From NCBI GenBank assembly GCA_964016885.1, contig OZ024741.1, positions 273,916,001 through 273,980,000 of the forward strand: a DNA stretch of 64,000 bases, given 5' to 3'. The notes under the pieces are model-generated. The model was given only the letters and a program-made list of their open reading frames with translations. It did no database searches and was not told the origin of the DNA. Origin of the DNA: Eledone cirrhosa. Its lineage: Eukaryota. This document shows, one piece after another, positions 22,042 to 40,887 of this stretch. How positions within the stretch are numbered: position 1 is the first letter of the stretch; every line of letters begins with the position of its first letter. The translations under genes were made by a program, and so were the position numbers.

Positions 22042-22338
22042 TCATACACACACAGAGTAAATATATCAACCCTAAAGCAGCCAAAGAGATGGATAGATAT
22101 GTTTCTTTATTAGCCACAGGGGCACAAAAGAAGGGGACAAATACAAAGGGGGAAGTTTACATACAATAAAAACGTGTAAAATGTTATCACAAATGCAATT
22201 TAAAAAATTAATCGATTTTCCCCAATAGAGGGAGACAGTTTATATGGGTAACACATACCCCCGAAAAAATGTGCAACCCTCATCTCCAGGAGTACGAAGA
22301 GTTTGTACTCCTTTCCTCTCCTCCTCCTTTTCCTCAAC

Positions 22339-25300
22339 CTACAGGCTGATATAGAGAGAAGGCCCATTCACTCGGGCCATTCTCGCCACTTTCACCCACC
22401 TTTCATAAAACTTGCTGGGGTACAGCACCTCTCTCTCCATCCTGATTCTTCTTCCAAAGTGGTATTTGAAAAAAAGAATCAGTTGTTGGCCGGAGAGAAA
22501 GGTGTCTGACCTCAGCCCTTTCAACCTTGTCCACCATACAACCTCTTTCGCCATAGCTATCACACAAAGGAAAATCGCCTCTCCTTCGTTTTTGAAGGAG
22601 GGTGGCGGTTTGATCATGACAATGGACTCGGTGGTCAACTGGATTGGTCCCACCCGCGACAATAGTCGTTCTACATAGCCCCACAGGTCAGTGACGCCCG
22701 GGCAGTGTATGAATGCGTGCGCGATGGTTTCTTCGTCTCGCACGCACCTCGGACAGATCTTTTTTGCAGGGTCCCTGCCCGGGCGCCCATGTCTGTAGAG
22801 CTTGTCTCGAACTGGTAGAGCTCCTCGGTAGCACTGCCAGGCCAGGGACTTTTGGAAGTTGTCCATCGGTCCCGGGCGGAAGGTCCTACCGAACAGACTG
22901 GCCAGTTCATCTTCCTCTACGCCTAGAGTTTCACCGAGCGCGTCGTCGCACTTGCTGCGGACCAACCCTCTATAGAATGACGAAGTGGAGTCTCCACTGA
23001 TCGCCGGGTCCGCCTGCCAGAGGGCTGTGAGCGCCTGAGCACATTCGATGTGCCAGTCGCCCATTTTCCTCGGTCTCTGCTTGACCCAGGACTGCAGCTC
23101 GGTCAGCGAGACGAGTCGTGGGAAGGCTCGCCTCACGAACGGGGCCCACACCGGTTGTCCGGTGAGGAATACGTAGAGATGCCGCAGCCTGAGCGCGTGT
23201 TTGCGCATCGTCAACCACGGCATCCCCAGCCCTCCGTTAGAAGGGTGTTGGCAGCAGATGGATCTTCTCACCAAAGGAGCCCGCCTCTTCCAAAGGAATC
23301 GGAAGAGCGCGCTCCATTTTGGCGAGCGTTTTGGCTGGACAAGGCACGACGGTCAAGCGGTAGTAGATGGCGGACGCTATAAAAGTGTTCGCCACCTCCG
23401 CTCGACCTTTCAAGGATAGTTTGCACTCGGCCCACTTCTGGGTGAGTGCAAACACCTTGGCCGTCACTTCGTTCCAGTTCTTCTCCACCTGGAGGTCCGG
23501 ACCAAACCAGACCCCGAGCAGCTTTACCGGTCCTTCCGTCCAGCGTCCGACGACGCCATCGGAAGGCATCTGTCTGCCTCTCCACGATCCGAGTTGCAAA
23601 CCGATGGACTTGTCCCGGTTCAGCTTCGCTCCTGTGAGACTTTCGTATTCCTTTAGTAAGGTGCCGACTTCCTCGATTTGCGAGGCGCTCGACACCATGA
23701 CTGTCTCGTCGTCGGCGTAGGCCGACGCCGCTTTCCGCAGTCCCGGTTCCAGAGAGATGCCCTGCAATAGCTCCAGCTTCCGCAGTAGTGGCTCGAGAGT
23801 CAGTACGTACAGAAGGGAGGAGAGAGGGCATCCCTGTCGAATGGATCGCGTAATATGGAACGGCTCCGAGAGGTAACCGTTCACCTTGACCCTTGAGCAG
23901 ATGTTGCTGTTGTGCATTGCAGCAATCCAGCCCCTGAACACGGGTCCGAAGCCTGCCGCCTCGAGCACCGCATCCAGATAACGATGGTCAACCCTATCGA
24001 AAGCCTTAGACTGATCCAAGTTGATCAGGGCCCCACCGAAGCCGGGTTTACACCCTACCCTCTCTATGATGTATCGCATGAGATGGAGGTTGTCGTGTAT
24101 GGACCTGGTCGGGATCGCGCATGTCTGCGCTTCTCCCACCAGGTTCTCGACGACAAGCGCCAGCCTCTTTGCTAACACCTTGGCCAAAATCTGTAACTCT
24201 GTGTTTAGCAGAGTTATGGGCCGGAAGTTGCCTATGTCATCCCCCTTATTCTCGTCCTTCCTGATTAGTGTGACCACGCCCCCGGTTACAGAACTGGGAA
24301 TTCTCCCGTTCTGTTGCCAGTTGCAGTAGACCGCTTCCAGGAGACCGGAGAATAAGTCCGGCATTGCTACGTAAAATTCGTAGGGTAGACCGTCGAGACC
24401 TAGAGATTTGCGTTTGCCGCATTGGCTCAGCGCGGCCCCTATCTCAGTGGCTGAAATCGGCTTTTCGCAGAACTTCGCCTCGCTGACCGAGAGTCGCGGT
24501 AGGCCGTCGAGGTATGGACCGAAATCCATAGCCTCTCCCGGCGCGCCGCTCCCCCCGAACAGCCGAGCAAAGTGCCGCTGAAAAGCCGCACACATCTGCT
24601 TCGGCTCACGTATCACGCGTCCGTTTTGGTCCCTCAAAGACCGAATCGTGGACTTGTTGCCACTTTTTGCCTCCGTCACTCGGGCCCAGCTAACAGCTTT
24701 GGCTCCCTCGTTTCCCAGAGCACGTATTTTGCTACTGACAACGCAGCCCTCGTGCTTTGCGTCGAAGAACTGGTCCAAGGCCGTTCTCGTTGCTAGCACG
24801 CTGGCTACGTTGCCACTTCTAATTGCCTCTTCTACTTTATCTACCAGTTCCTTCTCGGTTCTATTTCTATCTAACGCTAATTCTTTACTAAAAACTATCG
24901 AGTCTAATCTAACTGCCCTCTTGAGAGAGTACCACCATCTGTTGTTGACAATGGCCCCTGTCAAGTGCTGTTTAACTAAAGTGCTAATCCGTCTACTGTA
25001 GGCTTTGCTTGTCGGTAACGACAAGTTCAGCTTCCAGTAGCCGGGTCCTTCTCTATGGGTTCTATCAAGGTTGGCTATGCAGGTCACTAGTTTGTGATCT
25101 GAATAGGCAACCATGAACATTTGTGGACAGCTTAACATGTCCCTATCCTTATTTCTAACTAGAACCCTATCTAGGTACGATCTAGATGTTCCGCTACGAT
25201 TACTCCACGTCCACAGTGGCGCAGTCGGAAAATCTAGTCGATATCTATCGGCCAGGTCAAATCGGTCGATTAACTGTTTGAGGCTGTTACACCCCCCCCC

Positions 25301-25790
25301 CCCTTTATCGGGACATGCTCCCACATAGTCCCAACGTGCATCTAGGATTCCATTCCAGTCCCCCACTAAAAGCAAGGAGCGGGACGTTCCCAGAAAAGTC
25401 TCTAGACGTTTGAAGAAGTCTGGCCGCTGTGTCCCGGATGGGGCATATGCGGCCATCAGCCTGAACGCTCCACCTTTACTACCGTCAACGTCTAGGACCA
25501 CCAGTCGACCCTCCGGGTCCAGATGTACCGTCTGTGTTACGAGGCCCAGGTGTTTCCGCAGCAAAACGGCAACTCCGCCCCCACCCACCCCCCCACCCCG
25601 GTTGACAGAGAGATGCGTAGATCTCAAAGTCATCGAAGATGGGGGCCAGCTGTCGCTCGCCGTGGATCCTGGACTCGCAAATGGCTACCACATCCATACT
25701 GTGCGACCTGAAGTCGTTTAAGAGTTTGTCCTGTTTCCAGGGCATCCCCAGGCCGCGTACGTTCACACATCCAACTCTTATATTGGCCAT
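22339..25790 (-). pseudogene. Tx1-like ORF2 (AP endonuclease plus reverse transcriptase), two frameshifts
   Basis: NVRGL, GDWN, SYLDR, SDH, WKLN, GLDGLPYEFY, FRPITLLN, LDQSKAFDRVDH, IRQGCPLS, YADD, GGLG and CPRC...ET..H....C motifs, spread over ORFs 25485-25790, 23237-25633 and 22339-23274. Confidence 0.93.
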
Positions 25791-25823
25791 GTTGGTGCTG
25801 AAAAGTTAAAAGAGGAAAAGAGA

Positions 25824-27646
25824 TCACTCACCCTTCGCCTCCTGGGGACCAGGCCGCACGATTTCCATGGGGGTGTTGGAGGGGTTGTCTGGATGCGTGG
25901 TGGTTTCCGGCGGGGTGGGGACGCAGATGTTTGGTGGGGTGGGGTCTGGTGGGATGGGGGTGTCTGGGGTGGGGAGGCATTTGAGAAGGACGCGGTTGAG
26001 TGGTTTCACGCAGGAATTCCCCACATCCTTCTCAAATGTTTCTTTTAGGGACCTATAAGTTTGTATAGGGACCCTAATCAGTTTTAGGTTCAGTTTTTTG
26101 CTATTTTTAATAGAGTGGGCGAAAGTTTTCCCTTCGGTGAAAACCGAAGGGTCGTTCGTGATGGTCTCCATTAGTGTTTTGTTTTCAGTGTTTATGTAAG
26201 TGTAAGTGTAATTTTCTTGTGTTGTGTTTGTTTTTGTCTGCAGTTCTTGTGTGTGCTTTCGTTTTGTTGTAGGTATTTTGTTTTCAGGAGGTGGGGGTTT
26301 TGTTTGTGATGTTTTTGTTGTTTGTGTTGGTGGTTGTATGTTTGTGGTAGTGTTTGCTGGTTTTTTCTTTTGTGATGTCTTTTCTTTCTTTTCGAGCGAT
26401 GGGGTTCTCCCTCGTCTTCACTGGGTGATGGCGAGATAGCCTCATCTGTTGTATCGTCTGTGTGATTGGGGAGGGGTATGTCTTGGGGAGCTGTTGTGTC
26501 TGTATGTGATTTTGCAGTGGTTTTAGGTGGAGTGGGGTTGGGTGGGACTGTGTTTGTTGTGGTTATTTTTGTGTGTTGGTGTTGTTGTTGTTGTGGTGGT
26601 GTTGGTGGTTGTGTTGTTTTGATGGGTGTCGGCAGAAGACCCTTTTTTTGGTTCATTAGTTTAGGACAGGAAGCCCTCAGGTGACCCATGCTAAAGCAAT
26701 GGTAACATTAAGGCCGCCTACCCTCAACCGAAAGGTTTATGTAGGTGAGTCCGTCCAGGAGTACACGCTGTGGGATCATAGCTATTCGCTCTGGGCTCAT
26801 TTGCACCAGAACTTCAATGCTAGTCCCATTGAATACATCTCTGGGGGACTTTCCTACTGACAGTATTCTGTCTTCATCAAAATTGATGAAGCCGCACAGT
26901 ATCCACCATATGTTCACCTTTGGTGTGACACTTGTGATTCTGATCTTTTGTGTCCTTTTTCCCATGTATGTAGGGAAAAAGGTGTACAGGTTGGATACAT
27001 TTGGCGACACAGAGTAATTTTGGGCCGTCAATTGATCCTTCATCAGTACCGAAATACTCCCAAAAAGTTTGCTTCTTTGAATGAATGCAATATCATTCAT
27101 TGAATCTTTGAAAACCAGTTCAATATCTTTCTGTGACAATTGGACTGGTTTTCGGGTAGAATTGGAAACTGTCCTAAAAACTATCGTTTTGAGAGCAGTT
27201 TCCTTGCGAATTTCTACCGGAGAATTGATGCTGAAAGCACCATTTTTTTCGAAGGTGACATATCTCTTAGCGTCCTTTAAAAGGTGTTCAGCATTTGTTA
27301 TGTCGAGATATATCAATTGTTCTTTCTTTTGAACTTTCTCCGCAAAGGAGATTTTTGGTTTCTTTGTGGAATCCGTATTGGTGGTGTTGTCATTATTGTT
27401 GTTATTGTTGTTGTTATTCTTGTTGTCACCGATGTTGGTATCATCCGTATTTTCCTTGGTGTTGTTGTTGTCTTTGATGCTGGTGTTATTGGCGTTGTCT
27501 TTATTTTTTTCTTTGTTGTTGTTATCATTGTTGCTTTTATCATCATTATTGGTTTTGCTGTTATTTTTGTTGTCATTGAGCTGTTTGGTGTCATTTGTGT
27601 TGTTTGGATGTGAATTCGTTTTTTTATTTTCATTTTGTCTTTCCAT
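25824..27646 (-). pseudogene. Tx1-like ORF1 (Asn-rich N-terminus, CCHC zinc knuckle)
   Basis: ATG at 27646. CYHCFSMGHLRASC follows an in-frame stop at 26708, with one later frameshift. Homologous to ORF1 of copy C (YMGKRT/HMGKRT). Confidence 0.85.
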
Positions 27647-27668
27647 CTCTATAGTATCTAGTGAAGAG

Positions 27669-27747
<79 letters not shown>

Positions 27748-27748
<1 letters not shown>

Positions 27749-30700
27749 TTCTTTATTAGCCACAAGTGCGCACAAGAAAGGGGGACAATACAAGGACATG
27801 CCGGGGATTTTATATACAATCGTGTAAAAATATTGAAACAAATAAATTCAACAATCGAAGCCCCAATAGGGATGAGGCGTTACAAATGGGTTGTTTAATA
27901 CCCCGTAGATAGAACAACCCTCAACTTTAGGAGCGTGTTATGCAAGTGCTCCTTTCCTTCTTTTGCTCTCATCTTCAACCTACAGGTTTATATACAGAGA
28001 AGCCCCAATCACCCGGGCCATTTTTGCTACATTCACCCACCTTTAAGTAAATTTACTGGCGTGCAGTGCCTCTCTCTCCACCCTGATTCTCTTTCTAAAA
28101 AAGTGAACCTAAAGAAGGGTATGAGTTGTTGTCCGGAGAGAAAGGCATCTGTCCTCAGTCCTCTCAATCTCGTCCACCATATAATCTCTTTTACCATAGC
28201 TACTATACAGAGGAAAACCGCCTCTCTTTCGTTTTTGAAAGAAGTTGACGGTTTGATCCTTACTATGGATTCGGCAGTCAACTGGATTTATCCCACACGC
28301 GACAGCAGTTGTTCTGCGTAGTTCCACAGGTCGGTTACGCCCGGGCAGTGTACAATTGCGTGCAAGACGGTTTCAATGTCCTGCTCGCATCTTGGAAGGA
28401 TTCCTGCCGGGGCGTCCGTGCCTGTAGATCTTGTCTCGAACTGGTAGAGCTCCTCGGTAGCACTGTCAGGCCAGGGACCTCTGGAAGTTGTCCATGGGTC
28501 CCGGGCGGAAAGTCCTACCAAACAGACTGGTGAGCTCGTCGTCTTCAACGCCCAGGGTCTCTCCGAGCACGTCGTCGTCCTTGTGACGTACTAACCCTCT
28601 ATAGAATGTCGAAGTGGAGTCTCCACTGATTGCTGTGCCCGCTTGAAAGAAGACTGTAAGCGCCTGAGCGCATTTAATGTGCCAGGTGCCCATCTTCTCC
28701 GGTCTCCGCTTGACCAAGGACTGCAGCTTCCTCAGCGAGATAAGTTGCGGAAAGACATATCTCACAAACGGGGTCCACACCTGTTGTTCGGTGAGGAATA
28801 CTTAGAGATGCCGTAGCCTGAGCGCGTATTTGCGCATCATCAGCCACGGCATTCCCAGCCCTCCGTTGGAAGGGTGCTGACAGCAGACGGATCTCCTCAC
28901 CAGTGGAGCCTGCTTCTTCCAAAGGAACTGGAAGAATATGCGTTCCATCTTGGTGAGGTATTCACGGGGACAAGGCACGACAGTCAAGCGGTAGTAGATG
29001 ACGGACGCTATGAAAGTGTTCGCCACCTCCGCTCGACCTTTCAAAGACAGTTTGCACTCTGCCCACTTCTGCAGTCCTGTTTCCAACTGGATGCCCTGCA
29101 GAAGCTCCAACTTCCGCAGTAGTGGCTCTAGAGTCAGTACGTACAGAATGGAGGAGAGAGGGCATCTCTGTCGGATGGAACGCGTGATTGCGAACGGCTC
29201 CGATAGGTAGCCGTTCATCTTGACCGTCGACCAGATGTTGGTGTGCATTGCTTTGATCCAGCCTCCGAAGACGTGTCCGAAACCGGTCGCCTTGAGAACC
29301 GCTTCCAAGTATCGATGGTCGACCCTACCGGATGCCTTAGACTGATCTAAATTAATAAGACCCCTACCGGAGCCTATTTAAACCCTACCCTCTCTATGAT
29401 GTATCGCATGAGGTGGAGGTTGTCGTGTATGGACCTAGTCGGGATTGCACACGTTTGGGCTTTCCCTACCAGGTTCTCGACGACAAGCGCCAGCCTCGTT
29501 GTTAACACCTTGGCCAAAATCTTTAACTCTGTGTTGAGCAGTGTTATGGGCCTAAAGTTGCTTAGTTCGTCCCCCTTGTTCTCGTCTTTCCTGATCAGCG
29601 TTGCCACGCCCCTGCCTGCAGAACTGGGAATTCTCCCGTTCTGCTGCCAGTTGCAGTAGACGGCTTCGAGGACGCCAGATAAAAAGTCCGGCATGCAGAA
29701 CTCATAGGGTAGACCATCTAGACCGGGTTACTTGCGTTTCCCGCAGTGCCCCAGAGCGTCCCGTATCTCAGTGGCTGTGATCAGTCTTTCGCAGAACTCG
29801 GCGTCCATGCTCGAGAGACGCGGCAGGCCGGCGAGGTATGAACCGAAGTCCATTGCCCCGTTCGGTGCACCGTCGCTCTGCTCGAACAGTTTCGCAAAGT
29901 GCCGCTGAAAGGCCGTGCACATCCGCTTGGAGTCAAGTTGGACGCGCCCGTTTTGGTCTTTCAAAGACCGAATTGTGGACTTGTTGCCGCTTTTCGCCTC
30001 TGCCGCTCGGGCCCAGCTTACAGCTTTTGCTCCCTCGTTTCCTAGAGCACGTGATTTACTTCTGATCATGCAGCCTTCGTGTTTCGCATCGAAGAACTGG
30101 TCCAACTGTTGCTTAACTAATCTACTTATCCGTTCACTGTAGGCTTTACGTGTCGGTAACGACATGTTCAGCTTCCAGTATTCAGGTCCTCGTCTATGTA
30201 TTCTATGCAGGTGACTAGTTTGTGGTCTGAATAGGCAACCATGTACATTTGTGGACAGCTTAACATCTTCTTGTCTCTCTCTCTAATAAAGAACCTATCT
30301 AAATATGATCTAGATGTACCGCTACGGTTTCTCCACGTCCACTGTGGTGCAGTCGGGAAATCTAGTCGATACCTATCGGCAAGTTGGAATTGGCGGATTA
30401 AATTTTTGAGGCTGTTGCACGCCCCTCTACTGGGACATGATCCTACATTGTCCCATTGTGCGTCTAGGATACTATTCAAGTCCCCCACTAAAAGTAAGGA
30501 GCGAGACGTTCCCAGAAAAGACTCTAGACGCTTAAAGAAGTCTGGCTGCGATTGCCCAGTCGGAGCATAAACGGCCACCAGTCTGAAGGGTCCACCTCCA
30601 ACACTGTTCACGTTTATGACTACCAGTCTACCCTCCGAGTCCAAGTGTACTTGCTGTATTTCGAGGTCCAGGTTTTTTCGAAACATGACAGCCACTCCCC

Positions 30701-30806
30701 CTCCACATCCTGGTTCCAGAGAGATGCGAAAATCTCAAAATCATTGAAGATGGGGGTTATTTGCTGCCTGTTGTGGATCCTGGACTCGGTGATGGCTATC
30801 ACATCA
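27748..30806 (-). mobile_element. 5'-truncated, internally deleted Tx1-like copy B (ORF2 only)
   Basis: APE and RT motifs in fragmented ORFs. The 3' end GCTAATAAAGAAATC runs into (TATC)n at 27669-27748. Confidence 0.92.
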
Positions 30807-32342: not shown

Positions 32343-32390
<48 letters not shown>

Positions 32391-32392
<2 letters not shown>

Positions 32393-35035
32393 GAGCTGCG
32401 GAAAGGCCCGTCTGACAAACGCCGACCACACCTGTTCACCGTTTAGGAAGAATATCTGGAGATGCTGCAACCTCAGCGCGTGTCTGTGCATCTTTAGCCA
32501 CGGCATGCCCAGCCCTCCAGTTAGAGGGTGCTGGCAGCAGATGGACCGCCTCACCAACGGAACCTGACCCCTCCACAAGAATTTGAAGAGGAGCCGCTCC
32601 AAGATGACGAGGCGCTAACGGGGGCAAGGGACGACGGTCAGACGGTAGTAGATGACGGACGCGATATACGCGTTCCCCACCTCCGCTCGACCTTTCAGTG
32701 ATAGCTTTCTCTCCGCCCATTTCTGGGTGAGACTGGCTACCCTGCCCGTCACCTCGTCCCCATTCTTATCCACCTGGTGGTCTGGCCCGAACCAAACCCC
32801 GAGCAACTTTACCGGTCCGTCCGTCCATCGCCTAACGACGCTGTTGGACGGCATGGACTTGCCTCTCCAGGTGCCGAGTTGCAAGCTCACCGACTTTTCC
32901 GGGTTAAGTTTTGCTCCCGTCAACCTTTCATATTCCTCCAATAAGTTGCCAAGCCCCTCGATTTCTGAGGTGTCCGACACCATCACCGTGATGTCGTCCG
33001 CATAAGCCGACACAGCCTTTCCGCGTCGCGGTTCGAGCGGGATGCCCTGCAACAGCTCCAGCTTCCGCAGTAAAGGCTCGAGAGTCAATACGTACAGAAG
33101 GGACGAGAGAGGGTACCCTTGACGGACCGATCCGGAGACCTGAAACGGTTCGGAGAGGTGGCCATTAATTTTGACCACCGAGCAGATGCCGCTGTGCATT
33201 GCAGCGATCCAGCTTCTGAAGACGGGGTCGAAGGCAGTCGCCTTGAGGACAGCCTCCAGGTACCGATGGTCGACCCTATCGAATGCTTTCGATTGATCTA
33301 AATTGATCAGAGCCCCACCGAAGCCAGGTTTACACCCTACCCTCTCTATGATGTATCGCATCAGGTGGAGGTTGTCGTGTATGGACCTGGTTGGGATTGC
33401 GCAAGTTTGCGCCTCCCCAACCAAATCCCCGACGACAAGCGCCAGCCTCTTCGCTAACAGCCTGGCCAAAATCTTAAACTTTATGTTGAGCAGAGTTATG
33501 GGCCTGAAATTGTCTAATATGTCCCTCTTGTTCTCGTCTTTCCTTATCAGCGTTACTACGCCATGGCTTACAGAACTGGGAATACTCCCGTTCTGCTGCC
33601 AGTTACAGTAGAGCGCTTCGAGGAGATTGGAGAACAAGTCTGGCATATTTACGTAAAGCTCGTAGGGCAGACCATCCAAACCGGGTGACTTGCGCCTCAT
33701 GCCGCCGACAAGGGCATCCTGAATCTCGGCTGAAGTAATCGGCCTTTCGCAGCGCCCAGCGTCGACCGTCGAGAGTTGCGGCAAGCCATCGAGGTAGGGA
33801 CTGAAGTCCGTCACCATCTCTGACCCGCCACTTCCTCTGACCAACCGAGCAAAATGTTGGCGAAAAGCCTCACACATCCGCTTGGAATCGCTCAGCTCAT
33901 TTCCATCTCGGTCCGTCAAAGACTGAATCAGGGTTTTATTACCACGCTGCGCCTCTGCCACACGGGCCCATCGAACAGCTTTGGTTCCCTCGTTTCTCAG
34001 AGCACGCGCCTTAGCTCTGACAATGCAACCTTCGTATTTCGCATTGAAGAAATTGTCTAATGGCATTCTCGCCGCTAGCACGTTAGTTGCAATGCCATTA
34101 CAAATAGCCTCGTCTAACTTATCTACCAACACCCCCTCCTTTCTATTTTTCTCTAACGCTACTTTTTTGCTAAACTCTATCGATATTACTATAATCTCTC
34201 TTTTGTTGACGACTCCCCCTGTCAACTTTTTCTTAACTAAATTGTTGACCTGGTCCCTGTAAGCCTTACGTGCCGGAAATGACATGTTCAGCTTCCAGTA
34301 ACCAGATCCTAACCTACGCGTCTTATCTAGGTCGACCATACAGATCACAAACTTGTGATCTGAATAGGCGACCGTTTTAAAACGTGGACAGCTTACACTA
34401 TTTCTGTCTATTTTCCTAATGAATATCCTGTCTATATACGATCTAGATGACCCTATGCGCTTAGTCCAGGTCCACACTGGCGCATTAGATAAATCTAGTC
34501 GGTACCTGTCAGACAGTTGGAACTGACTGATCAGGTTCTTGAGGCTTTTGCACCACCCGCTCCTATCGTATACTCCCACACAGTCCCAACGTGCGTCTAA
34601 GATGCCGTTCCAGTCCCCCGCTAACAGTAAAGGGCGAGACGTACCCAGAAAGGCTTCCAGGCGTCTAAAGAAGACCGGTCGTCCTGCCCCAGTAGGGGCG
34701 TAGACGGCCACCAGTCTAAAGGCACCACCTTCGTTATTGTTTACGTCCAGGACCACCAACTTCTCGTCCGGGTCCCGGAAGATCGACTTTACCTCGAGAT
34801 CCAGGCCTTTCCTAAACAGCACTCCTACCCCACCTCCCATTCCCGGCCGACTAACAGATGCAAAGATCTGATAGTCGTCGAAAATGGGGGCTAGTGCGCG
34901 CGTGTCGGAAATCCTGGTCTCGCTGACGGCAATTACATCCATTTTTAGAGATCTGAGGTCGTTGAGCAAGTAACCCTGCTTCCAGGACAATCCCAGGCCT
35001 CGAACATTTAAACTTCCTACTCTTAATACGGCCAT
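32391..35035 (-). pseudogene. Tx1-like ORF2 (APE-RT), 806-aa open segment
   Basis: NVRGL, GDWN, SDH, SPGLDGLP, KAFDRVDH, VRQGYPLS and YADD, then an in-frame stop at 32615 and truncation. Confidence 0.93.
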
Positions 35036-35065
35036 GTTGGCAGGCTAAAGAGAGAGAGGAAAGGT

Positions 35066-37044
35066 TTACTTACCTTCCGGGCTCTTGTGAAGGTCGGGTA
35101 GTTCGACCTCCATAGTTGGTGGGGTTTCTTTTGGGAACCCCTTTAAAAGTCTTGAAGTGGGTTTTACGTTCGGGGTTCCCACGTCCCGAGGAAAGCTGTC
35201 TCGTATCTCTTTGTATAAATCGAACGACATTCGCACCAGAAGCAAATCTTCCGGCACGCAAAACGTGCTCGATTTAAAAATTTCACCCTCTTTTTGTATA
35301 TCTTCCCTTTGTGCTACGAAGGCCATCAGTTCCTTGTTGGCTCTGCTGACGAGCACGAAGTTTTGTATGTTTTGTTGGTGTGATTTTATTTGTTTGCGTG
35401 GCTGTGGTGGTGATGGTTTTGATGGTGTTGTTTCGGTTGTGTTTGTTGTGAGTGCGGTGTCTGTGGTTTCAGATGTTTGTGTATGTATTTGTTCTTGCAT
35501 CTGTTTAGGTGTTTGCGTTTGGGGGATTCTGGTGATGGTGATGGCGGTGTTGATGTTGATGTTGTTGGGGAGATGTTTGTGTGGGTGGTGTCTGCATTTT
35601 TTATTGTGGGTGTTTTTGTGCTTTGTTGGTTTTTTTTTTCTTTTTGTGTTTCATTTTTTTGTATTTTGGGGAATTTGGGTTTTCCCTCATCTTGACTACT
35701 GGTAGATGAGGGGTCTGTGTCTGTAAGTGTGTCTGTGTGAGTGTTTATGTTTTTTATTGATGTGTGTATTTTTTTTGGTTGGGGGGGGGGGGGATTTGAC
35801 AACTTTCCTCGTTTCCCCCCTGGGTGGTCAATGTTGGTGGTGGTCTTTCTATCAGTGTTGTTGCAGGTGGTTTTGCCGGTGCTGGCGTTGGTTGTGGTCC
35901 TCGCCCCGGCGTCGGCAGCAGTGGAACCCTTCGACCCCTTACATCTTTCAGCAGTTGAGGGCAGAAGGCTTGTAAATGGGTTTTTTCCCCACAAACAAAA
36001 CAATGCGGCTTTTTAATATGAATGACCGTCCCATTCTGAAGGCGGATGTGGTCCGGGATTGTCTTCACATTTTCCGGTCTGATCTGGAGAAGTAACTCCA
36101 GGTCAACCCCGGACCAGTCCTCTCTGGCAGTTCTTGTCACTTCTATCGGGACGGTATCCGTCCCCTCCACAATCACATATCCCAGAAGCCACCACATGTC
36201 AAGTCCTGGTGGGATTCTGTGAATACGGAGACGAGTCGTTCTTTTTCCCATGTGGGAGGGATACATTATGACCTTGCTGGTTTTGCAAGGTGTCATAGCG
36301 TGTTTCATAGCGAGGGCTTCTGACTTAAACAGCACCGAAATGGTGCCGTACTGTCTGCCCCTCGCTATGTATTCGGTGCCATCCCTGATGCACCTCAGCG
36401 CAACTTCGACATCTGTTTGTGGAATTGAAGCTGTCCTTTTGGTTTGTGCTGAGATGCATCTACAATGCACCGTTCTGCGCTCCACTGCCTCAATAGCTTC
36501 TACCGGGAGAGTTAAGTTGGCCCAGGTTTGCTCTTGCTTGATGAGCTTCCAGGCCTGGGCCAACTTTTCATCTTCGTTTGAGAGATCCATGCTGAGGCAT
36601 GGCCTCTTTTTGGCTGCTGCCGCAGCGAAAGTGTTCTTCTTGTTGTCGTTGGTGGTGTTGTTGTTGGCGTCGTTGTTCTTGTTGGTGTTGTTGTTGTTAT
36701 CACTGTCGCTATTATCATTGTTGTCTTTGGTGCCACCGTTGTTCTCGGTGCAGTTGGTATTGTTGCTGTTGATATTGTCGCTATTTGTTTTCATGTTAGT
36801 TGTGTTGATATTGTTTTTGCATTTGAGGTCATTTTTTCTGTTATCTGTATTTTCATTGTTGCTGTTACTGTCATTTTTTTTCAAAATTAGAGTTCTCAGT
36901 GTTATCATTGCTGTCTTTGTTCACGTTGTTTCTGGTGGTGTTTGTTGTATCAATTTCTGTTAATTTAGCCGTAGCGCTCCTCTCAACTTCTACGTCGTTG
37001 TCGAACGACAGCAGACATTTCGCTGGGGGGCGTGGCTCAGCCAT
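35066..37044 (-). pseudogene. Tx1-like ORF1 with CCHC knuckle, frameshifted
   Basis: CFVCGEKTHLQAFC and an Asn-rich N-terminus. The C-terminus is homologous to copy A. Confidence 0.85.
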
Positions 37045-37045
37045 G

Positions 37046-39496: not shown

Positions 39497-39684
39497 TTAT
39501 TCCGGGTTGAATTGGAGGTAACCACAGTAAGTAAGGTACTCAATACATAGCAGAGTATAAAAGTTTTAATATAGAAGAGCTTCTACAGGACTAGAACTGT
39601 TTCAATCGTGAGAAATCATCTGGGAGCTCCCTGATGATTTGTCACGATTGAAACAGTTCTAGTCCTGTAGAAGCTCTTCTATAT
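39497..39684. mobile_element. Tail-plus-hairpin module with a degenerate hammerhead
   Basis: Palindrome at 39569-39684. Same family as 371-576. Confidence 0.7.
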
Positions 39685-39705
39685 GATATTGATATATATA
39701 TGTGC

Positions 39706-39791
<86 letters not shown>

Positions 39792-39794
39792 TAT

Positions 39795-40887
39795 ATACAT
39801 TTGGGCTTTATCGTGACGATGGTCTAATACTTTTCCATACCACCATAGTCCATAACTTAGATAGATTTAGGAAAGACTTAATAAAAACCTTCGCTAGTTT
39901 TAATCTTAAAATTACTATTGACACTAACCTTTCCAATGTAAATTTCCTAGATATAAACCTAGATCTGCCTACTGCTTCTTATAAACCGTACCATAAACCT
40001 AATGATAATTTAAAATATATAAGTAAAGGCTCTTGCCATCCTCCTATAATTTTTAAAAATCTTATCCCTAATATTAGCCGTAGGATCTCCACCCTCTCTT
40101 CCTCAGAAGCTATTTTCAATAAGGCATCCTCTACTATAATAAAGTGCTTCAAAATAGCGGATTTAGCGAACCGATTAAGTACATACCCAACAATACTAAC
40201 TCTTTTACACATAATAATAGGAAAAGAAAAATAATCTGGTTCCCCCCACACACACACACACACTCTTTAACAGTTAAATGTAATGTAGGCAAAAAATTCC
40301 TAGAGCTCTTAGATAAACATTTCCCTAGAACACATAGATACTATAAGATCTTCAATAGAAATTGTGTCAAAATCAGCTACTCCTGCGGTCCCTCTATTAA
40401 ATCTTATATCCTCAATAAGAAATCACCCAGAGAACATAAAAATTGCTTCTGTAGAGTCAAAAGTGAATGCCCATTACAAGGTAAATGCAACACCAAAGCC
40501 ATTGTATATGCGGCTAAAGTGACAACCACCAGCAACAACCTACCAGCCACCAGTGAACGATATGTGGGTATGACACAAGACAAATTCAAAACGCCTTATT
40601 ACTCACATGACGCATCTTTCCGACATCCTGAAAAAAGATTTACAACAGCTCTGGCTAGCAGAATATGGGATTTGAAAGACCAAGGTATCCAATATAAATT
40701 AGATTGGTCAATTTTGAACCAATCTAAAGAATATGCAAGAGGAACAAGGAGATGCGCACTCTGCATAAGTGAAAAATATTGGATTTTACAGAACCTTATA
40801 TCACCAAAAAACTTGCCTAAATGCAAAAACAGAAATGTTCACCAGTTGCCCACACATGAAATCACACTTGCTTTCCAGCTCATATAA
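39795..40887 (+). pseudogene. Penelope-like RT C-terminus plus GIY-YIG endonuclease, frameshifted
   Basis: GLYRDDGL, NFLDI, YKPYHKP, SCHPP, RKRKIIWF, KIFNRNCVKISYSC, CFCRVKSECPLQGKC, IVY...YVGMT and CALCISEK. Confidence 0.9.

What the first reader, a model, noticed from the sequence alone, without database searches (positions are those of the whole stretch)
25791..25835. Shared splice donor plus acceptor cassette at the Tx1 ORF1-ORF2 junction (also 35036-35076)
Seen on the minus strand: copy A has AAGG|GTGAGTGA-tctcttttcctcttttaacttttCAG|caccaacATGG and copy C has GAAG|GTAAGTAA-acctttcctctctctcttTAG|cctgccaacATGG. In both, a consensus 5' splice site overlaps the ORF1 stop, and a polypyrimidine tract plus YAG lies 7-9 nt before the ORF2 ATG, although the ORF1 proteins are very divergent. 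Joining the two sites directly would excise only 34 or 29 nt and is out of frame in both copies, so a simple ORF1-ORF2 fusion is not supported. Inference: the sites act separately. The acceptor could make an ORF2-only mRNA from an upstream or host donor, and the donor could splice ORF1 downstream. This would be a splicing-based control of ORF2 expression, unlike the re-initiation described for mammalian L1.
Basis: partly seen in the sequence, partly recalled or inferred. Interest (0 to 1): 0.72.

Follow-up and report, generated by a model that had tools for sequence, protein, structure and literature searches.

The report
Working splice donor ends LINE ORF1
A large group of jumping genes (Tx1-like LINEs, likely of an octopus) keeps a splice-start signal on the stop codon of its first gene, and one sister copy is seen joined from exactly that signal to a host exon 22 kb away in a likely RNA data set; the supposed splice-end signal beside it is not conserved and is instead predicted to be half of an RNA clamp around the second gene, which likely decides whether that gene is cut out.

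Summary
Half right. Both motifs are at the stated places, but only the donor holds up. A donor lies on the ORF1 stop in 22 of 22 families with an intact junction (17 match at least 8 of 9 consensus bases), in different reading frames. A contig from a run that is probably RNA joins a sister copy exactly at this donor to a host sulfotransferase exon across a 22,483-nt GT-AG intron. The 'acceptor' is labile: AG in 8 of 22 families and in 1 of 30 close relatives of copy C. No genomic copy or contig shows its use. The pyrimidine tract is predicted to pair with the purine-rich 3'UTR just after the ORF2 stop (native -37.6 vs cross-family -31.9 kcal/mol, 16 elements), covering much of the donor. Best reading: a helix-gated donor that makes ORF1-only mRNA, as in Ty1/copia (0.5). 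Splicing to the element's own ORF2-stop AG was not seen. Earlier scan notes found the donor and helix elsewhere in this genome; none of those shown reports spliced RNA.

The parts
25826..25834 (-). Copy A 5' splice donor AGG|GTGAGT, phase 1; ORF1 stop TGA at 25826-25824
   Evidence: 28 of 30 family copies
25791..25823 (-). Copy A 33-nt spacer: pyrimidine tract (predicted 5' arm of the long-range helix), CAG at 25800-25798 (AG unpaired in the predicted helix), CCAAC start context
22339..25790 (-). Copy A ORF2 (endonuclease, RT, zf-RVT), frameshifted; ends in TAG followed by G
22294..22338 (-). Copy A purine-rich start of the 3'UTR, predicted 3' arm; duplex with the junction -43.9 kcal/mol
22106..22111 (-). 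Copy A AATAAA just before the TATC-repeat target
25824..27670 (-). Copy A ORF1, 5'-truncated at a (TATC)n run, frameshifted, with a CCHC knuckle
35068..35076 (-). Copy C donor AAG|GTAAGT, phase 1; ORF1 stop TAA at 35068-35066
35036..35065 (-). Copy C spacer; its TAG (35047-35045) is absent in 29 of 30 close relatives but present in sister family C'
32390..35035 (-). Copy C ORF2, cut off by a microsatellite; no ORF2 end or 3' arm follows here
35066..37045 (-). Copy C ORF1 (frameshifted; start approximate)

Best explanation
The ORF1 stop of these Tx1-like LINEs carries a working 5' splice donor, and the pyrimidine tract after it is predicted to pair with the 3'UTR just past the ORF2 stop, a clamp that likely gates the donor so the element makes both full-length RNA and an ORF1-only spliced mRNA. 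SHOWN: the donor is conserved across frames, and one sister copy uses it into a host exon (the run is inferred to be RNA). PREDICTED: a 35-45-nt helix that closes ORF2 as a 3.4-kb loop, puts the ORF2 start next to the ORF2 stop, and covers 5-8 of donor positions -2..+8. INFERRED: while ORF2 is being transcribed the donor is free for U1. If it commits to a downstream acceptor (most likely the YAG|G at the ORF2 stop, otherwise a host exon on read-through), ORF2 is removed and ORF1p is made in excess. If the 3' arm zips first, the RNA stays unspliced, serves as template, and ORF2 is translated by re-initiation. The AG before the ORF2 ATG is a freely varying unpaired spot in the helix.
For: Donor in 22 of 22 intact-junction families, with conservation limited to positions -2..+6. 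The ORF1 stop falls in phase 1, 2 or 0, so protein coding does not explain it. X4 contig 11 leaves the element at the donor; the foreign 27-mer has one genomic site, behind a pyrimidine tract and CAG; a same-strand copy lies 22,483 nt upstream and matches 9 of 9 listed variants, against at most 5 of 9 for the other copies among 117 scored. Duplex: native -37.6 vs cross-family -31.9 kcal/mol, permutation p 2e-5 (not corrected for relatedness); best of about 130 own-ORF2 windows in 12 of 16 elements; shuffle z -1.8 to -6.4. ORF2 ends in TAG in 14 of 16 elements, TAG|G in 13. A stop would return within 1-2 codons after the hypothetical ORF2-stop join in 5 of 7 families with a clear phase. AATAAA/ATTAAA is scarce in ORF2 (0-3 per element), so pure protection from early polyadenylation is less needed there.
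Against: No join to the element's own ORF2-stop AG was seen: 0 genomic copies (searches list 20, 23 and 10 copies that depart from the donor, all point changes or deletions), and none among X4's 28 contigs at the junction. One lineage (f27, f31) keeps the donor but ends ORF2 in TAA. Families 9 and 14 would gain a tail of up to 28-43 codons, and C' copies differ in phase. The one observed splice comes from a copy with most of its 5'UTR missing, a premature ORF1 stop and a broken ORF2, and it happens despite a predicted helix (-34.6), so the clamp is leaky or that copy is atypical. Sister-pair swaps favour native pairing weakly (6 near pairs p 0.16; all 8 pairs p 0.04). It rests on one contig in one run whose type is not on record.
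Confidence: 0.5

Rival explanations
1. The donor is a U1 docking site that normally does not splice. It supports elongation or blocks early 3'-end formation, and the helix later releases U1. Splicing into host exons is leakage.
For: Many families also carry GTRAGT near the 5' end of the 5'UTR, ahead of an A-rich ORF1 that often holds AATAAA/ATTAAA. There are no spliced retrocopies. U1 at the EVD donor suppresses premature termination (PMC5580714 section 8, read).
Against: ORF2 holds few poly(A) signals, none in several families. It does not explain the ORF2-stop TAG|G bias.
Confidence: 0.27
2. The conserved thing is a translation-control helix (termination, re-initiation, throttling of ORF2), and the donor likeness is a by-product of stop codon plus stem.
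For: The helix's inner end joins the base before the ATG with the base after the ORF2 stop (pairs in 12, 14, 11 and 9 of 16 elements at positions 1-4). CCAAC-ATG-G is conserved.
Against: GT..GT stays fixed while the stop moves between frames and while its pairing partners change. The site works as a donor.
Confidence: 0.15
3. One reading: the spacer AG is an acceptor for an ORF2-only mRNA from a 5'UTR or host donor.
For: Family A keeps a pyrimidine tract and CAG (28 of 30) and has a 5'UTR donor.
Against: AG is absent in 14 of 22 families. There is no joined retrocopy, although such an RNA keeps ORF2. X4 contigs are unspliced there.
Confidence: 0.08

Closest known systems
Tx1-clade LINEs that target microsatellites (Kibi (TC)n, Koshi (TTC)n; PMC4494074, passages); L1-Tx1 families of Octopus vulgaris (13 recently active families; PMC13282606, passages)
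   Same: Two ORFs, endonuclease + RT + zf-RVT ORF2, CCHC ORF1, insertion into microsatellites, many young copies.
   Different: The passages read do not mention a junction donor or a spacer-3'UTR pairing; targets here are (TATC)n and (TAT)n.
Arabidopsis Ty1/copia EVD spliced shGAG RNA (PMC5580714; abstract and section 8 read)
   Same: A conserved U1-type donor at the end of the structural gene; splicing gives structural-protein-only RNA; U1 also guards the full-length RNA.
   Different: EVD is an LTR element with one polyprotein and a short intron coupled to early termination. Here there are two ORFs, the intron would be all of ORF2, there is a long-range clamp, and the internal product is unseen.
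Human L1 splice donor G98U99 and SpIREs (PMC5860796, passages)
   Same: A conserved functional donor in a LINE that is mostly unspliced.
   Different: The L1 donor is in the 5'UTR, is explained by a RUNX3 site, and leaves about 1.8% spliced retrocopies. Here it sits on the ORF1 stop and no clear spliced retrocopy was found.

Membership tests
Tx1 clade (L1 group) LINE | ORF2 with APE endonuclease, RT and C-terminal zinc-binding domain | tested here: met
   PF03372, PF00078, PF13966
Tx1 clade (L1 group) LINE | Separate ORF1 with RNA-binding domains and CCHC knuckle | tested here: inconclusive
   CX2CX4HX4C in sequence; no Pfam hit; atlas look-alikes zf-CCHC 0.92 and ZCCHC3-RBD 0.89 are leads only
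Tx1 clade (L1 group) LINE | Target preference for repeats | tested here: met
   (TATC)n and (TAT)n flanks and tandem arrays in the copies read
Tx1 clade (L1 group) LINE | RT phylogeny groups with named Tx1 references | not tested
   No named references held; nearest hits are unnamed (about 40%) or a fish protein with ZCCHC3-RBD domains (27%)
U2-type 5' splice site | MAG|GTRAGT match (consensus recalled) | tested here: met
   17 of 22 families at 8-9 of 9, all 22 at 7 or more
U2-type 5' splice site | Used in a GT-AG join | tested here: met
   One sister copy, one contig, run inferred to be RNA; not shown for the two window copies
3' splice site before ORF2 | Conserved YAG | tested here: not met
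   8 of 22 families; 1 of 30 family-C copies
3' splice site before ORF2 | Used in RNA or retrocopies | tested here: inconclusive
   None; RNA coverage is thin
EVD-like subgenomic RNA strategy | Short spliced RNA using the element's own acceptor and 3' end | tested here: inconclusive
   Not seen; ORF2-less RNA would rarely retrotranspose, and only contigs were available

The most novel reading that the evidence does not exclude
A LINE clade in which all of ORF2 is a regulated spliceosomal intron: a donor on the ORF1 stop, an acceptor on the ORF2 stop, and a co-evolving RNA clamp that sets the ratio of ORF1-only mRNA to full-length template. Thousands of copies would also act as portable donors that capture host exons.
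Probability: 0.4. Interest if true: 0.82.

Novelty: new variant of a known kind. Interest (0 to 1): 0.66.

Why it matters
How LINEs make much ORF1p and little ORF2p from one RNA is explained for mammalian L1 by re-initiation (own knowledge). A conserved, working donor on the ORF1 stop plus a long-range clamp would be a second solution, convergent with Ty1/copia, and can be tested with one long-read data set or a minigene. Separately, more than 4,000 copies reach the ORF2 start, and most sampled copies carry the donor. One of them is shown to splice into a host sulfotransferase exon, so the clade can rewire host transcripts.

Tried and rejected
(1) Direct 34-nt or 29-nt micro-intron: out of frame in both copies, 0 excised family-A copies. 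(2) ORF1-ORF2 in-frame fusion through AGs in the first ORF2 codons: phases do not agree across families (read). L158 is a deletion ending 1 nt off a donor-to-CTTAG join, ambiguous. (3) My first idea, a local hairpin of ORF1 end and pyrimidine tract: weak (mean z -1.08, chimera p 0.105; 4 of 22 families p<0.05, clade-mean p 0.048). It is clear only in f14, f16, f26 and f30. The long-range duplex gains 10-24 kcal/mol over local folds in 16 of 16 (no control for that figure). (4) No RNA holder was listed; run types are not on record. Contig depths cannot rank parts, so the 3'UTR excess in X4 and the 115 vs 8 depths at the junction are not used as evidence of levels. One search hid 165 joints, so a donor-to-ORF2-stop join in X4 is not excluded. 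(5) The first metagenome scan was empty. The second gave 16 loci, 7 with a junction, at 26-31% identity; none has a full donor at the ORF1 stop by eye, two are weak. (6) The host gene's N-terminal exon was not found in 200 kb upstream. (7) Dropped rows: 12 of 34 junction clusters (truncated or deleted single copies and variants of counted families). L119 has a weaker donor and a repeat-expanded spacer; L136 lacks donor and spacer, unresolved. 3 of 19 elements picked for the duplex test had no ORF2 end found, and f10/f10b and f6/source are near-duplicates. (8) Paper searches (listings only) showed no paper on an ORF1-stop donor in Tx1. Subscription journals and Repbase reports are not covered, and no supplements were read.

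Full report
OBSERVATION. Copies A and C are damaged members of two families of a two-ORF LINE with endonuclease, RT and zf-RVT domains. Family A has many young copies with an intact 1145-aa ORF2, a 638-aa ORF1, a 33-nt spacer and (TATC)n flanks. The genome is 3.0 Gb. The nearest named relatives of a host gene are from Octopus bimaculoides and Argonauta, so an octopod is likely.

COPY-LEVEL CHECK. Among the 30 best relatives of each window copy, family A keeps the donor in 28 and the CAG in 28. Family C keeps the donor in 23, but the AG only in 1, the window copy; most read TTTAAC. The sister family C' has TTAG, so copy C may retain an older state.

FAMILY-LEVEL CHECK. A pattern anchored only on the ORF2 start gave 4155 genomic matches against 2 for the control. 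From these and neighbouring elements I took 151 distinct junctions in 34 clusters and kept 22 families with an intact junction. All 22 have a donor-like site 25-53 nt before the ATG. The locating pattern fixed four positions, so the fairer figure is 17 of 22 at 8-9 of 9 consensus bases, against 20 such sites in 120,799 nt of antisense strand. Conservation is sharp from -2 to +6 and drops outside. The ORF1 stop is read in phase 2 in most families, phase 1 in A and C, and phase 0 in young C', so neither codons nor the stop fix these letters. An AG between donor and ATG occurs in 8 of 22 families and differs between sister lineages on the tree. Seven distant relatives (26-31% identity) from metagenome contigs lack a full donor by eye.

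THE DONOR IS USED. In run X4 (type not on record; 88 Mb of contigs against about 1.4 Gb for three other runs of that study), contig 11 follows an ORF1 end, stops matching at the donor boundary and continues with 27 foreign bases. These occur once in the genome, at G000:C3:35,004,768, directly behind a pyrimidine tract and CAG. They open a 375-codon Sulfotransfer_2 exon (E 9e-41), close to where similarity to the O. bimaculoides protein begins. A same-strand copy lies upstream with its GT at 34,982,285, an intron of 22,483 nt. It matches 9 of 9 listed contig variants and the 30-nt loose end on the other side; the best other copy among 117 scored matches 5. The joined form is not in the assembly, so X4 is inferred to be RNA. 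The join puts a stop one codon after the ORF1 frame's end and does not fuse to the host frame. Limits: one contig, one run, and a copy that has lost most of its 5'UTR and has broken ORFs. Where the transcript starts is unknown.

THE ACCEPTOR IS NOT SEEN IN USE. There are 0 copies with the 34-nt excision among at least 559 family-A-type junctions. The acceptor-side search gave 4 hits, all variants or deletions. X4 contigs over the spacer (family 3/6-, 9- and 11-like) are unspliced. For comparison, spliced copies are about 1.8% of full-length human L1PA1-6 (PMC5860796, passages).

WHAT THE PYRIMIDINE TRACT IS. I first tested a local hairpin; support was weak. Earlier scan notes suggested pairing with the 3'UTR, which I then tested on 16 single elements. 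Native duplexes average -37.6 kcal/mol against -31.9 across families (permutation p 2e-5, relatedness not corrected). They beat every one of about 130 own-ORF2 windows in 12 of 16 elements, and composition-matched shuffles by z -1.8 to -6.4. Family-specific letters match across the arms in f9, f14 and f26. Sister-pair swaps are less clear (6 near pairs p 0.16; 8 pairs p 0.04). The helix's inner end pairs the bases before the ATG with those after the ORF2 stop, its outer end covers 5-8 of donor positions -2..+8, and family A's AG falls in an unpaired spot. Window copy A gives -43.9 kcal/mol with 22338-22294; copy C has no 3' arm here.

WHERE THE DONOR WOULD GO INSIDE THE ELEMENT. ORF2 ends in TAG in 14 of 16 elements and TAG|G in 13 (more copies). 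A join there would restore a stop within 1-2 codons in 5 of 7 families with a clear phase. No such join exists in the genome for families A, 9, 11 or C by the patterns used: one search gave 0; some searches listed 20, 23 and 10 point changes or deletions, against 539 and 802 copies with G at +5, of which 100 each were listed. Joins with G at +5 could be missed in families 9 and 11. ORF2-less RNA would seldom be copied, so this is weak evidence against. The join was also not among the joints shown for X4.

MECHANISM AND COMPARISON. It works like Arabidopsis EVD, where a conserved donor makes GAG-only RNA and U1 protects the full-length RNA (PMC5580714, abstract and section 8), but it is not a member of that system. 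The elements fit Tx1 by domains and microsatellite targets (PMC4494074 and PMC13282606, passages); placement by RT tree was not tested. Six paper searches (listings only) showed no description of this junction. Earlier scan notes reached the donor and the helix on other DNA of this genome; those shown report no spliced RNA, and a word search for a host-exon join found none. The observed join is what this report adds.

Noticed in passing
L072:2789-2800 and other 5'UTRs (L064, L108, L138, L140, L188, L190): A second GTRAGT donor-like site about 30-70 nt from the element's 5' end in many families, ahead of an A-rich ORF1 that often holds poly(A) signals.
   Followed up: partly
G000:C3:34,974,595-35,005,900 (L171-L175): Two tandem sulfotransferase catalytic exons with the spliced Tx1 copy between them; the downstream gene's N-terminal exon was not located.
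   Followed up: partly
L138 and L130 spacers (families 26, 30): The spacer holds a perfect 9-10-nt antisense copy of the donor, a local hairpin that could alternate with the long-range helix.
   Followed up: partly
window 27751-30805 (-): A 5'-truncated family-9-like copy sits head to tail with copy A in the same (TATC)n run; mixed-family tandem arrays are common (L062, L066, L072).
   Followed up: no
L122 (- strand, position 410): A family-A copy 5'-truncated exactly at the ORF2 ATG, next to (TATC)n; single case.
   Followed up: no
L158 (G000:C2:135,302,699): Deletion from the ORF1 end to ORF2 codon 28, 1 nt off a donor-to-CTTAG join.
   Followed up: partly
L068, L070, L191 junction (family C'): ORF1 frame runs through the donor in phase 0 and stops at the spacer TAG.
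   Followed up: partly
ORF2 about +271 in families C', 26, 30, 31: A further strong donor-like site inside the endonuclease coding region.
   Followed up: no
window 39671-40887 (+): RT-like and GIY-YIG-like ORF fragments, probably a Penelope-like element (recalled resemblance, not tested).
   Followed up: no
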